From contig JBDRCX010000004.1 of NCBI GenBank assembly GCA_043821365.1, positions 1-18,605 of the forward strand: a DNA stretch of 18,605 nt, written 5' to 3'. Positions 1 through 18,605 of this stretch are shown one piece after another (position 1 is the first letter of the stretch; every line of letters begins with the position of its first letter). A program made the translations under genes and the position numbers. This DNA comes from Candidatus Micrarchaeota archaeon (lineage in GTDB: Archaea > Micrarchaeota > Micrarchaeia > Anstonellales > Bilamarchaeaceae). The notes beneath the pieces are model-generated. The model was not told the DNA's origin. It was given only the letters and a program-made list of their open reading frames with translations, and did no database searches.

Positions 1-997
<997 letters not shown>

Positions 998-14904: not shown

Positions 14905-15245
14905 TCCGCACTAACTTTTCGATGAGAACCTATACTCTAAGGTTCGATGAAAACAACAAGTTAGAGTTTTATATGTCTCTCCGATTTTCGGAGAATTTCA
15001 TGCGTGTGAAGTAACGACAAGTTGTTGTTTGTTTTTTTCTATTAAGATTCGCTTCGGCGAATTTTGTGGAATTGAACAAACAAAGGAGATAGTATCATAC
15101 GATAAAATGTTAGATACTTCAATATCTCTGGATTTTATTTGCGACAAGTTTCTTTTAGAAATTTTAGCAAATGAAGTGAAAAACTTAGTAATTAAGTAGT
15201 GTCATATATGCTGGTTTGTGTTGTCGCTTAGGCGATGATACAAAC
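14905..15245 (+). other. Structured 5' leader of pre-23S rRNA
   Basis: Non-coding, with tandem hairpins (GAACCT/AGGTTC, TCTCCGA/TCGGAGA, ATTCGC-TTCG-GCGAAT, and a 14-bp stem at 15214-15245). Confidence 0.6.
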
Positions 15246-16865
15246 AACTATACGCCATTTAGTGGATGGCTTGGCTTGTGCCCGCACAGTCACGCGGCAA
15301 GCGGCGAAACGCCATGGGTAGACGCACGCAGTCTTTGATCCATGGGTTTGACTGAGCACAGTAATGTGCAACAACCCCTTGAAATGAAGCATCTTAGTAA
15401 AGGGTGGAAAAGAAAGCAATGCGATCTGGTTAGTAACAGCGAGTGAAAGCCAGTTAGATCAAACCGAATTCCATCAGGGTAACCTGGTGGTAGATGTGGT
15501 GGGGAGTATCCTTTGTTTGAGTCGAAGTCCGTTGGAACACGGTACCTTAGCGAGTAACAGTCTCGTAGACGAAGGCCAGAGGAACGATCCAAGAAGAGTA
15601 GTGCCCGTTGGATAACGGACATGAACATGGGAGTATCAACTTCTAAATCTAAATATGGGGCGCAAGACCGATAGCGAATCAGTAGCGCGAGCGAACGCTG
15701 AAAAGCACTGCGGGAGCAGTGTGAAAAGAACCTGAAATTAAATGGTTACAGAATGGCAAGGCATAAAAGCGTAGGTTTGTGGAAGCGAATTTGGGTAACT
15801 GAATAAGCGACATGAATTAAGCAGTGTCTTGTCTTTCTTCTCGAAGCAAGAACCAGGGAGTTATTTGATGTGGCGAGACGAGAGTCAAAGCGAAAGCAAG
15901 TGTACGCAGCCCGCAAGGGTAAGGTACGTCGTGGTAATTCGCGATTAGTCACATTGAGTAGACCCGAAGCCATAGTGAGCTACGCCCGAGCAGGATGAAG
16001 CCAATCTGACGATTGGTGGAGGTCCGCAACTAGTGATGGTATATTCCTCTTAGGTGACTTGGGTGTAGGGGTGATAGTCCTGTCGAACATGGCGATAGCG
16101 GGTTCCCTCTGAAATGTCTCTCAGGACAGCGTCTCTGGAGAATGATATAGCGGTAGAGCACTGATCAGGTGGATTGGCTCCGAGAGGGGTCGCCATCTCC
16201 TCAAACTCCGAATGTTATATCTTCGTAGAAGGAGGCAGTCGGGGCGCCGGAGTAAGTCTGGTGTCCCTTACGGGAACGACCGTACGTGAGGCTAAGGGCC
16301 CTAAATGCTAGTTAAGTGTTAATCTGGAAGGAGTTTCTATTCGAAAACAACCGGGAGGTAGGCTTAGAAGCAGCCACCCTTCAAACAACGCGTAATAGCG
16401 GACCGGTCTAGAGTACAGATTCTGAAAATTCACGGGACTAAGCTAGCTTCCGATACCTCACCAATGTAAAAAACATTTGAGTAAGGGGGCGAACGGGTTG
16501 CCTAGAAGCACGGTGGTGACATCGTGTGGAGCGGCCTGTTATGAATATCCTGGTGTAAGTAGCAGCATATCCGGATGAGAATTCCGGACACCTTATAGAG
16601 CAAGGATTCCTCAGCCACGTTCTTCAGCTGAGGGTTAGGCGATCCTAAGGGCCATGGTAACTCCTGAAGCCCGAAATTAGGGAAACTGGTTAATATTCCA
16701 GTCCTATGAAGATAGGTTGCCGCAAGGCGCGCCACATTCTTGACGCTTTTGGATAGGTTGAACATCTTCGGATGTCTGAAGAGGGTAAATTCGCGGAGTC
16801 TTATTGTGAGGAGAAGCGAACGAATCTCGTAGGGGTAACTCGATCAAGTCCAGGGGCCCATGAAA

Positions 16866-16920
16866 GAAACTTTTTGGAAAAAGTTTCATCAAAAACTGAC
16901 CAAAAAGGGTCCATGATAAA
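16866..16920 (+). other. ~55-nt AU-rich insertion in 23S domain III (near E. coli 1570)
   Basis: Removing it restores GGGGCCCATGAAAAG, matching the archaeal GGGGCCCGTGAAAAG pattern. It contains hairpins GAAACTTTT-TGGA-AAAAGTTTC and GACC-N6-GGTC. Boundaries may slip within A runs. Confidence 0.7.
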
Positions 16921-17234
16921 AGATGTGGAACGATTCTTCATAATCGTACCTAGAACCAGTACAGGTGCTCTAGCTGAATAGGCTAAGGTGTGATAGGACA
17001 ACCTAGGTAAGGGAACTCGGCAAAATAGCCCTGTAACTTAGGAAGAAGGGGTGCCATAGCATGAGTAATGTTGTGGTTTCAATAACAAGGGGAGTGCGAC
17101 TGTTTACCAAAAACACAGATCATCGCAGAGCCGAAAGGCTGAGTATGATGGTTGACGTCTGCTCACTGCTAGTACCTGAATATCGGGTTCAACCGGAAGA
17201 AGGGCTAGTAAAGAGCGGGGGTAACTCTGACCCT

Positions 17235-17929
17235 CGACAAAGAGGGGGTCGCAATAAATCTCGCTATATGCTGGAAACCCTAACCGTTTAAAACGGGGAA
17301 GAATACAGATACCGAGCAGGTGAAAATTCTGTTATTCAATTGGGCAATCAGCAGGAAACTAAGGAGGTGGTTTTATGGAATTGAGTAAAATTCCTAAAGA
17401 AAGATACCTCAAATACTATATTGCTGGTTTTGTTGATGGTGAAGGTTGTTTCAGTGTTTCGTTAAAAAAACAAGAAACAACAAGATTCGGATGGGTATTG
17501 GATCCGATTTTTCATGTAACTCAACATAAAAATAGCATAGAAGTACTCGATCTAATAGAGAAGGTACTTAGATGCGGAAGAGTTATAGAAAAACACGGAC
17601 AAAAAGATACCTGTCAGTTCTTAGTAGATAACCGAAGACAACTAAGTGAGAAGATCATTCCTTTTTTTGACAATTATTTGATTGTGAAGAAAAAGGATTT
17701 CAAGATTTTCAAACGAATTGTCCAAGGTTTAGAAAACAAAGAACATACAAAACCAGATAGCTTCCTTGAGCTTGTGAAGCTTGCTTTCTTAATGAATAAT
17801 GAAGGAAAGCAACGCAAATATACATTCAAAGAAGTAGAAAATAGTATAAAAGGATCCTCAGAGACTACACGCGAGACACCAAAAGGTGATGATATAGTCC
17901 AATCCGTACAGTAATGTGCGATACGATTG
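17235..17929 (+). mobile_element. Group I self-splicing intron at 23S position 1923 (695 nt)
   Basis: Exons rejoin to GACCCT|CTTAAGGTAGCG. The 5' exon ends in U paired with G of the IGS (GGGGGTC, P1) and the intron ends in G. Core elements P (ATGCTGGAAA), Q (AATCAGCAGG), R (TCAGAGACTACA) and S (GATATAGTCC) are present, with P3 TCTCGC/GCGAGA, P7 GACTA/TAGTC and P9 GTACA-GTAA-TGTGC. Confidence 0.96.
17375..17914 (+). CDS. Intron-encoded single-motif LAGLIDADG homing endonuclease
   Basis: YIAGFVDGEGCFSV motif, FHVTQ, GRV and IIPFFD typical of the I-CreI/I-CeuI-type fold; strong SD AAGGAGGT upstream; frame intact. Confidence 0.95.
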   Translation: MELSKIPKERYLKYYIAGFVDGEGCFSVSLKKQETTRFGWVLDPIFHVTQHKNSIEVLDLIEKVLRCGRVIEKHGQKDTCQFLVDNRRQLSEKIIPFFDNYLIVKKKDFKIFKRIVQGLENKEHTKPDSFLELVKLAFLMNNEGKQRKYTFKEVENSIKGSSETTRETPKGDDIVQSVQ

Positions 17930-18605
17930 CTTAAGGTAGCGTAATACCTCGCCGCTTAATTGGCGGCTTGCATGAATGACGTAACGTCACTCCCACTGTC
18001 CCTACTTAGGACCTAGTGAAATCACTGGCCAGTGAAGATGCTGGCAACTTCCAGAGGGAAACGAAGACTCCATGGAGCTTTACTATAGTCTGATGTTGTG
18101 GTACGAGATATACTACCAAGCGTAAGTGGGAGCCGTTATGTTGCAGCTTCTGGGTTGCAAATAGGCGAAAGTGTTACACCACTTAGTATATATTGTATCG
18201 CTTACTCGAAAGAGAACAGCGTCAGGTGGATAGTTTGGCTGGGGCGGTACGCCCTCGATAAGGAAACAAGGGCGCCCAATGCTTTGCTCATTCCGGTCAG
18301 AAATCGGAAGTAGAGGGTTAAAGACAAATGCAAGGCTGACTGTATTTTTAAAAGCGTAGAATGCAGAGACGAAAGTCGGGCTTAACGAACCTTGAAATCC
18401 CTTTGATGAGGATTCAAGCTGTCAGACAAGCTACCCTGGAGGTAACAGGCTCGTCGCGGGTGAGAGTACACATCGACCCCGCGGTTTGGTACATCGCTGT
18501 CGGCTTGGGACATCCTGGTCGTGTAGGAGCGGCCAAGGGTTGGGTTGTTCATCCATTAAAGTCCCACATGAGCTGGGTTCAGTACGTCGCGAGACAGTAC
18601 GGTAG

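What the first reader, a model, noticed from the sequence alone, without database searches (positions are those of the whole stretch)
18431..18505. Divergent peptidyl-transferase centre: A2448G, C2499A, A2503C
GGGAUAACAGG reads GAGGUAACAGG (18439-18449) and ACCUCGAUGUCG reads ACAUCGCUGUCG (18491-18502). Numbering is anchored by intact U2449, A2451, C2452, G2505 and U2506. Nearby helix changes are compensated (U2064-A2446, A2067-U2443, C2057-G2611, U2589-A2605), so the gene is under structural selection and these are unlikely to be errors. A2503 is near-universal, is the RlmN/Cfr methylation site, and A2503C is a known chloramphenicol-resistance change. Divergent PTCs have been reported in some archaea; whether this triple is described needs alignment.
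Basis: partly seen in the sequence, partly recalled or inferred. Interest (0 to 1): 0.75.

Follow-up and report, generated by a model that had tools for sequence, protein, structure and literature searches.

The report
Micrarchaeota-wide variant ribosome active-site shell
The three unusual bases near the catalytic centre of this tiny archaeon's large ribosomal RNA are real, but they are an inherited signature of its whole lineage (Micrarchaeota), and the most striking one (C at position 2503) is also normal in several other archaeal groups, so this is a modest new variant of the recently described divergent archaeal ribosome active sites.

Summary
Observation confirmed. The window is a whole contig of a Micrarchaeota (DPANN) genome. 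Its only 23S rRNA gene (15238-18605, cut at the contig end) has G2448 (18442), A2499 (18493) and C2503 (18497), plus C2586 (18580). All substrate-contacting bases are canonical.

It is not an error or a pseudogene. All 98 listed matches from the window's order carry the same string. Contigs from four independent public runs, two of them RNA libraries, agree at every site. Neighbouring helices covary cleanly.

The interpretation needs correcting:
- A2503 is not near-universal in Archaea. C2503 is the rule in Thermococci (90 of 91 genomes), Altiarchaeota (27/27) and Iainarchaeota.
- G2448 recurs in other lineages.
- The 2453/2499 pair takes five forms (A/C, U/U, G/U, C/A, A/A).
- No RlmN gene was found.

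What is specific to Micrarchaeia is the combination G2448 + A2453/A2499 + C2503. Sister orders add G2505A with G2576U, or C2507G.

Closest known: the divergent PTCs of Thermoprotei and Methanomethylicia (Nissley et al. 2024), which involve other positions. This scan has reported analogous cases on other DNA (Aenigmatarchaeota, Parvarchaeum, Bathyarchaeia), but not this set.

Verdict: new variant of a known kind, moderate interest.

The parts
15238..18605 (+). Large-subunit (23S) rRNA gene, archaeal type. The only copy in the genome. Cut at the contig end at about E. coli position 2611.
   Evidence: RF02540, 1963.6 bits, model positions 1-2706 of 2987. The own-genome search finds LSU pieces only on this contig.
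18442..18442 (+). G at E. coli position 2448 (A2448G), in the central loop of domain V
   Evidence: G2448 in all 99 Micrarchaeia-type loci that show both 2448 and 2499.
18447..18447 (+). A2453, unchanged. It is the partner of position 2499, so the pair here is A/A instead of A/C.
   Evidence: 2453/2499 states in Micrarchaeia-type loci: A/A 93, C/A 5, U/A 1.
18493..18493 (+). A at position 2499 (C2499A)
   Evidence: Same in 98 of 98 listed matches from the window's order.
18497..18497 (+). C at position 2503 (A2503C), at the entrance of the exit tunnel
   Evidence: Same in 98 of 98 listed matches from the order. Also fixed in Thermococci, Altiarchaeota and Iainarchaeota.
18580..18580 (+). C at position 2586 (U2586C), tunnel wall.
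   Evidence: C2586 in all Micrarchaeia-type loci tabulated.
18066..18068 (+). G2061, A2062, C2063: canonical inner-shell bases
18498..18501 (+). U2504, G2505, U2506, C2507: canonical in this window. Sister orders of the class have A2505 and/or G2507.
18577..18579 (+). G2583, U2584, U2585: canonical
18594..18597 (+). A2600, C2601, A2602, G2603: canonical
18069..18072 (+). U2064 and A2067, the 5' strand of helix 74. They pair with A2446 (18440) and U2443 (18437).
   Evidence: Within Micrarchaeia 2064/2446 is U-A in 33 loci and C-G in 59; 2067/2443 is A-U in 42 and G-C in 50; no mismatches.
18583..18599 (+). U2589 and A2605, a compensated pair in helix 93
   Evidence: U-A in 67 loci, A-U in 39, one mismatch.

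Best explanation
This is the working, single-copy 23S rRNA gene of a Micrarchaeota (DPANN) archaeon. Every base that touches the tRNA ends or takes part in catalysis is canonical: G2061-C2063, G2251-G2253, G2447, A2450-C2452, U2504-U2506, G2553-U2555, U2584, U2585 and A2602.

Three bases in the packing layer behind the A-site cleft and at the mouth of the exit tunnel are replaced, and the replacement is fixed across the lineage: G2448, an A2453/A2499 pair instead of A/C, and C2503. The tunnel-wall base C2586 is changed as well.

Shown here: the states are inherited across the window's order and most of the class, the helices around them are kept by compensatory change, and the sequence is present in RNA libraries.

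Inferred:
- Peptide-bond formation is unaffected.
- The base layer 2453/2499/2500/2504 under the A-site cleft packs differently, in the same spirit as the rearranged base networks seen in the Pyrobaculum calidifontis ribosome.
- C2503 has no purine N7 and a smaller stacking surface. It therefore cannot form the A2062-A2503 contact that bacterial ribosomes use to sense certain nascent peptides, and it offers a poorer surface to ligands such as phenicols.
- The archaeal context tolerates changes that nearly abolish activity in E. coli in vitro assays.

Whether the set is adaptive (intrinsic insensitivity to natural PTC-binding compounds) or drift that became fixed is open. I favour tolerated, epistatically locked-in drift, with drug insensitivity as a side effect.
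For: - Identity and numbering.
- Only LSU gene in the genome.
- Lineage-wide: about 30 relatives from the genus and 11 other families of the order are identical at the sites. 98 of 98 listed matches in the order read ACAUCGCUGUCGG. The taxon is named by the titles of matching public contigs.
- Independent samples: no other letter at 18442, 18493, 18497 or 18580 in contigs of two RNA-library runs and two DNA runs. 13 RNA-library runs hold the stretch; all 20 holders together come from 13 studies.
- Structural selection: compensated pairs 2064/2446, 2067/2443 and 2589/2605.
- Positions are known to be dispensable for bulk catalysis. The nucleobases of A2062, A2503 and U2586 are not needed for protein synthesis but are needed for ErmCL stalling, through N7 of A2503 (Koch et al. 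2017). A2448, A2503 and U2586 score as mutationally flexible (d'Aquino et al. 2020).
- Context dependence: the E. coli single mutants C2499A and A2503C give 0.01 of wild-type activity in the iSAT in vitro assay. Yet C2503 is native in Thermococci, Altiarchaeota and Iainarchaeota, and U2499 is native in Thermoplasmatota.
- Precedent: divergent archaeal PTCs with rearranged base networks, tolerated because of archaeal protein context (Nissley et al. 2024).
Against: - No structure or biochemistry exists for any Micrarchaeota ribosome, so every functional consequence is inferred from bacterial work.
- The run data are assembled contigs. They show presence in RNA libraries but neither expression level nor transcription as such.
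- The E. coli iSAT values for A2503C (0.01) conflict with the in vivo viability of E. coli carrying only A2503C ribosomes. Bacterial single-mutant data are therefore a shaky guide.
- The 3' end of the gene, about 280 nt, is missing from the assembly.
- Most loci used for the position table were collected with a pattern that required C2503. That table cannot give frequencies for 2503 itself; the frequencies come from the unbiased pattern scans.
Confidence: 0.8

Rival explanations
1. Assembly or sequencing artefact. The sites lie 100-170 nt from a contig end inside a conserved rRNA, where metagenome assemblies often break or become chimeric.
For: The contig ends inside both rRNA genes. The window is the whole contig C4.
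Against: Relatives carry an identical PTC sequence in the middle of long contigs. 98 of 98 listed matches in the order agree. Four independent runs show no other letter at the sites.
Confidence: 0.02
2. A decaying or non-functional rRNA copy (pseudogene) that is accumulating changes at conserved sites.
For: The bit score is modest for the length matched: 1963.6 bits over 2706 model positions. The gene carries about 700 nt of insertions.
Against: It is the only LSU gene found in the genome. Helices are maintained by compensatory double changes. The first-shell bases are all intact. The same states are conserved across a whole order. The stretch is held by many RNA-library runs. The extra length is an intron with an intact LAGLIDADG gene.
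Confidence: 0.03
3. An adaptive, selected resistance design. The set was fixed because it makes the ribosome insensitive to natural PTC- or tunnel-binding compounds (phenicol-, pleuromutilin-, lincosamide-, oxazolidinone-like molecules or proline-rich peptides) made by neighbours or hosts.
For: - A2503C lowers chloramphenicol sensitivity about fourfold in E. coli and arises in chloramphenicol selections in R. marinus.
- A2503C raises resistance to Onc112, and C2499A is listed as conferring linezolid resistance (d'Aquino supplement).
- Sister orders of the class carry G2505A together with G2576U. From my own recollection, not checked here, both are linezolid-resistance changes in bacteria.
Against: The states are ancient and shared by lineages from very different habitats: groundwater, soil, acid mine drainage, hot springs. 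C2503 is also fixed in Thermococci and Altiarchaeota. Archaeal ribosomes already differ from bacterial ones at drug-relevant positions such as G2058.
Confidence: 0.15

Closest known systems
[quoted passage not shown] 2024, bioRxiv 10.1101/2024.11.12.623245)
   Same: Clade-wide natural replacement of 'conserved' bases in the 2447-2453 and 2500-2504 strands of the domain V central loop in Archaea. The changes sit at positions where E. coli single mutants are inactive. They affect the packing network that includes C2499, A2453, U2500 and U2504.
   Different: The positions differ. P. calidifontis changes 2447, 2453, 2500, 2501 and 2504, and apparently 2061 (the paper writes 'A2061'); all of these are canonical here. 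Here the changes are at 2448, 2499, 2503 and 2586. The paper's text does not mention A2503, A2448, DPANN or Micrarchaeota. The set here is smaller (3-4 changes against 5-6), and the organisms are mesophilic or acidophilic DPANN rather than hyperthermophiles.
Thermococci (Thermococcus/Pyrococcus group) 23S rRNA
   Same: C at position 2503 in 90 of 91 genomes with a match, complete genomes included.
   Different: Thermococci keep A2448, A2453/C2499 and U2586. That the solved Pyrococcus and Thermococcus ribosome structures show this C is an inference from the genomes. The coordinate files could not be inspected here, and I found no paper that comments on it.
Laboratory and clinical 23S rRNA resistance mutations A2503C, A2503U, C2499A
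   Same: The same base changes at the same positions. A2503C gives reduced chloramphenicol and Onc112 sensitivity, and C2499A is linked to linezolid resistance.
   Different: Those are recent single mutations in bacterial ribosomes, often costly. Here the changes are ancient, combined, fixed across a class and set in an archaeal ribosome.
Other clade-wide divergent PTCs noted earlier in this scan (Aenigmatarchaeota, Parvarchaeum/ARMAN-4/5, Bathyarchaeia, Brockarchaeota relatives)
   Same: The same kind of phenomenon: an intact first shell and a lineage-fixed, altered second shell.
   Different: Those notes describe about ten changes each; this lineage has three or four. They are AI notes that I did not re-test.

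Membership tests
Archaeal large-subunit rRNA (Rfam RF02540) | Covariance-model score above the gathering threshold (50 bits) over the conserved core | tested here: met
   1963.6 bits, model positions 1-2706 of 2987, cut only by the contig end
Archaeal large-subunit rRNA (Rfam RF02540) | Canonical first-shell PTC, P-loop and A-loop nucleotides | tested here: met
   G2061-C2063, G2251-G2253, G2447, A2450-C2452, U2504-U2506, G2553-U2555, U2584, U2585 and A2602 are all as in E. coli
Divergent archaeal PTC as described by Nissley et al. 2024 | Clade-wide sequence variation at otherwise conserved positions within 2447-2453 and 2500-2504 | tested here: met
   A2448G and A2503C fall in these ranges and are fixed in the order
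Divergent archaeal PTC as described by Nissley et al. 2024 | The specific changes of the described clades: G2447A, A2453C, U2500C, C2501A, U2504C | tested here: not met
   All five positions are canonical in the window
Divergent archaeal PTC as described by Nissley et al. 2024 | Rearranged base triples and hydrogen-bond networks seen in a structure | not testable with these tools
   No RNA structure prediction or coordinate inspection is available, and I know of no Micrarchaeota ribosome structure
RlmN/Cfr methylation target (m2A/m8A2503) | Adenine at position 2503 | tested here: not met
   C at 18497
RlmN/Cfr methylation target (m2A/m8A2503) | RlmN/Cfr-family radical-SAM methyltransferase encoded in the genome | tested here: not met
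   TIGR00048 finds nothing in the own genome (87% complete). It rings in 11 control genomes, 10 of them over the cut-off; these are the 10 listed bacteria plus M. jannaschii

The most novel reading that the evidence does not exclude
The A2062-A2503 'sensor' and drug-contact surface at the tunnel entrance, usually called universally conserved, may be replaced by an alternative design in a large part of the Archaea. C2503 is fixed in Thermococci, Altiarchaeota, Iainarchaeota and most Micrarchaeota. Micrarchaeota go further: they have an A/A (or C/A, G/U) 2453/2499 pair and G2448, and sister orders carry G2505A with G2576U or C2507G. If these ribosomes really differ in nascent-chain sensing and in sensitivity to PTC ligands, they would be a natural series of working alternative active-site shells. 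They could guide ribosome engineering and help explain the drug insensitivity of archaea.
Probability: 0.3. Interest if true: 0.55.

Novelty: new variant of a known kind. Interest (0 to 1): 0.35.

Why it matters
Position 2503 is still routinely called universally conserved in the antibiotic and stalling literature (for example, and the abstracts listed). The data here show that whole archaeal classes use C there. Micrarchaeota combine it with C2499A, a change that almost abolishes activity in the E. coli in vitro assay. This adds a new clade and new positions to the recently recognised diversity of archaeal ribosome active sites. It gives concrete natural combinations to test for epistasis in the PTC. 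It also warns against reading such changes in metagenomic rRNA as errors or as recent resistance mutations. It does not reveal a new kind of system.

Tried and rejected
- **E. coli reference.** A BLAST of the region against E. coli genomes returned only four odd short records. I used MG1655 rrlH by accession instead.
- **The genome search 'of'.** I obtained genome handles through 'handles' first.
- **Bayfield et al. 2004.** The paper on the A2453-C2499 wobble pair is not held, so I cite only its title from another paper's reference list.
- **C2503 in solved structures.** I found no paper commenting on C2503 in Thermococcus or Pyrococcus ribosome structures. That these structures contain C2503 remains an inference.
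- **Run data.** All four runs were Logan contigs. They show the letters and presence in RNA libraries, but not expression level or RNA ends. The joints and loose ends listed there come mostly from other organisms' rRNA, and I did not interpret them.
- **Mis-binned contigs.** Some MAG titles, such as Hadarchaeum, Bipolaricaulota and one Thermococcaceae record (L070), sit on contigs with a Micrarchaeota-type sequence. I treat these as probable mis-binning; the Hadarchaeum MAG holds two different Micrarchaeota-type fragments. The Thermoplasmatota MAG G536 also looks like a foreign contig when compared with its phylum.
- **2056/2448 interaction.** I considered a direct interaction and rejected it. 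A2056 simply pairs with U2612 in helix 73.
- **U2586C.** I dropped it as a notable change. C2586 also appears in the bacterial loci, and U2586C keeps 0.44 activity in E. coli.
- **Iainarchaeota scan.** Only 17 of 151 genomes matched the pattern. The rest may lack the gene or be more divergent, so no frequency is claimed beyond the matching rows.

Full report
**What is in the window.** The window is the whole of contig C4 of a 1.2-Mb, 6-contig, 87%-complete genome. An archaeal SSU rRNA gene runs off one end (1-997, minus strand). An archaeal LSU rRNA gene runs off the other end (15238-18605, plus strand; RF02540, 1963.6 bits, model positions 1-2706 of 2987). Ordinary genes lie between them: ArsR-type regulator, cysteine desulfurase/SufBD, glutamate dehydrogenase, SPFH and an esterase. 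No other LSU copy exists in the assembly. Titles of public contigs with the same PTC string place the organism in Micrarchaeota/Micrarchaeia, a DPANN lineage.

**The observation.** I aligned the region to the Rfam archaeal consensus and to E. coli MG1655 rrlH. This gives G2448 at 18442, A2499 at 18493 and C2503 at 18497.
- So is the rest of the first shell: G2061, A2062, C2063, G2251-G2253, G2447, A2450, U2500-G2502, U2504, C2507, G2553-U2555, G2583-U2585 and A2600-G2603.
- The compensated pairs it named are present.
- It missed U2586C (18580), C2496U, and G2056A. In relatives whose gene continues past this point, G2056A pairs with U2612.

**Real, not an artefact.**
- A DNA search of 60 relatives found the region in 46 of them. 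Every locus fetched, from the genus and from 11 other families of the order, has G2448, A2499 and C2503. Several of these lie in the middle of long contigs.
- A neutral pattern scan of 400 genomes of the class (any base allowed at 2499, 2503, 2505 and 2507) listed 98 matches from the window's order. All 98 read ACAUCGCUGUCGG.
- Contigs of four independent public runs were laid on 17950-18605: two metatranscriptome libraries and two DNA runs. By accounting for every listed and unlisted difference, none shows another letter at 18442, 18493, 18497 or 18580. One DNA contig is 35 kb long.
- Thirteen RNA-library runs hold at least 58% of the sampled words. Because these are assembled contigs, they show presence in RNA libraries, not expression level.

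**Under selection.** Within Micrarchaeia-type loci the helix pairs next to the changed bases covary without mismatches:

| Pair | Form 1 | Form 2 | Mismatches |
|---|---|---|---|
| 2064/2446 | U-A, 33 | C-G, 59 | 0 |
| 2067/2443 | A-U, 42 | G-C, 50 | 0 |
| 2589/2605 | U-A, 67 | A-U, 39 | 1 |

This, the intact first shell and the single-copy status exclude a pseudogene.

Position 2503. The same neutral pattern gave:
- C2503 in 90 of 91 matching genomes of the class that contains the Thermococcus MAGs, many of them single-contig complete genomes. The one exception looks bacterial.
- C2503 in 27 of 27 matches in Altiarchaeota.
- In Iainarchaeota 17 genomes matched: 15 have C2503, one has U2503, and one has A2503 in a bacterial-looking sequence.
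- Thermoplasmatota are mostly A2503, with two C2503 among 18 native-looking rows.
- A few bacterial MAG contigs also carry C2503, among them one labelled Rhodothermus. That genome's only match to the pattern has it.

Position 2448. G2448 recurs in Iainarchaeota-type sequences and in two Thermoplasmatota.

The 2453/2499 pair. It is A/C in Thermococci and E. coli. It is U/U in Altiarchaeota and Thermoplasmatota. It is U/C in most Iainarchaeota-type loci. It is G/U in one Iainarchaeum and in one Micrarchaeia family. It is C/A in the family of the contig titled 'Candidatus Micrarchaeum sp.' (L124). It is A/A in the window's order.

The lineage-specific feature is therefore the combination G2448 + A2453/A2499 + C2503.

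**The class is more varied than the window.** Three PTC types occur in Micrarchaeia:
- the window's type;
- a type with an added G2505A, which goes with G2576U in 22 of 23 loci;
- a type that keeps A2503 but has G2505A and C2507G.

None of the 150 listed rows of the class scan shows the canonical ACCUCGAUGUCGG. A further 87 matches were not listed.

**What the changes probably do.** All of this is inferred from bacterial work.
- Koch et al. 2017 showed by atomic mutagenesis that the nucleobases of A2062, A2503 and U2586 are not needed for protein synthesis. N7 of A2503 and N6 of A2062 are needed for ErmCL-type peptide-dependent stalling. A cytosine has no N7.
- A2503 is part of a stack with 2058, 2059, 2061 and 2063.
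- d'Aquino et al. 2020 list A2448, A2503, G2505 and U2586 among the mutationally flexible PTC-ring positions. Their supplementary table gives relative iSAT activities of 0.37 (A2448G), 0.01 (C2499A), 0.01 (A2503C), 0.44 (U2586C) and 0.10 (G2505A).
- E. coli living on A2503C ribosomes alone is viable and about fourfold less sensitive to chloramphenicol. A2503C also arises spontaneously in chloramphenicol selections in Rhodothermus marinus.

My reading is that catalysis is unchanged. The layer under the A-site cleft (2453/2499/2500/2504) is repacked. The tunnel-entrance surface is altered, with loss of the A2062-A2503 contact and probably lower affinity for ligands that lean on A2503. The archaeal context makes these changes tolerable. 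Nissley et al. argue the same for P. calidifontis, where a shorter uL3 loop permits changes at 2453, 2500 and 2504. I did not examine uL3 here.

**RlmN.** No homologue of RlmN (TIGR00048) was found in the genome. The model rings in 11 control genomes, the ten listed bacteria plus M. jannaschii, and 10 of these pass the cut-off. With C at 2503 the RlmN/Cfr question does not arise.

**Comparison with what is known.** The closest description is Nissley et al. 2024. That paper reports clade-wide variation at up to six positions within 2447-2453 and 2500-2504 in Thermoprotei and Methanomethylicia, with a cryo-EM structure. Its text names 2447, 2453, 2500, 2501 and 2504, and writes 'A2061'. The window is canonical at all of these, and the paper does not mention A2503, A2448, DPANN or Micrarchaeota. 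I found no paper on Micrarchaeota PTC sequence. Earlier notes of this scan report analogous, larger sets in Aenigmatarchaeota, Parvarchaeum, Bathyarchaeia and a Brockarchaeota relative. One first-reader note reports C2503 in another genome. None reports this set. One of those notes gave me the lead to the Nissley preprint, which I then read myself.

**Verdict.** However, A2503 is not near-universal in Archaea, the RlmN angle does not apply, and the triple is a lineage signature rather than a quirk of this genome. It is a new variant of a known kind and of moderate interest.

Noticed in passing
window 17269-17921 (ORF 17375-17914, + strand): The 23S gene is interrupted near E. coli position ~1925-1931 by an insertion of about 700 nt. 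It encodes an intact LAGLIDADG homing endonuclease (PF00961, E 1.6e-21). The ORF is flanked by sub-threshold group I intron matches (RF00028: 29.3 bits, E 2.3e-5; and 20.8 bits). This is probably a group I intron of the kind already known in archaeal LSU genes.
   Followed up: partly
Class of G411 (Thermococci); e.g. L080, L090, L101: Essentially all Thermococci sampled (90 of 91 genomes with a match, complete genomes included) have C at 23S position 2503 (ACCUCGCUGUCGG). The literature calls this base universally conserved A. I found no paper that comments on it.
   Followed up: partly
L035, L037, L040-L042, L044 and others (families f13, f18, f21, f22, f24 of the class): Sister orders of Micrarchaeia carry G2505A in addition to A2499 and C2503. 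It almost always goes with G2576U (22 of 23 loci), together with C2579U and G2574. This looks like a coupled change at a base normally regarded as invariant in the PTC.
   Followed up: partly
L036 and the rows of families f15 and f19: A third Micrarchaeia PTC type keeps A2503 but reads AC[A/U]UCGAUAUGGG, that is G2505A plus C2507G. In L036 the 2453/2499 pair is G/U.
   Followed up: no
L071 (MAG titled Rhodothermus sp.), L129, L130, L135: Bacterial-type 23S sequences with a natural C2503 (GGCACCUCGCUGUCGG). The genome holding L071 has this as its only match to the pattern. Spontaneous A2503C chloramphenicol-resistant mutants are known in Rhodothermus marinus.
   Followed up: partly
L011, L012, L014, L015, L017, L033 and many loci: In many relatives the distance between the 2437-2455 block and the 2497 block is 100-350 nt instead of 60. 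This means insertions or mini-introns inside helix 89. The window itself has none there.
   Followed up: no
window 1-997 (- strand) and 15238-18605 (+ strand): The 16S and 23S genes are unlinked, divergently oriented and separated by 14 kb of protein genes. No tRNA or 5S gene lies in the window. Both rRNA genes are cut by the contig ends.
   Followed up: no
L092 and G537:C41 (MAG titled Hadarchaeum); L070, L081, L089: Contigs with Micrarchaeota-type 23S sequence sit in MAGs labelled Hadarchaeum, Thermococcaceae, Bipolaricaulota and Thermoplasmatota. These are probably binning contamination by DPANN contigs.
   Followed up: partly
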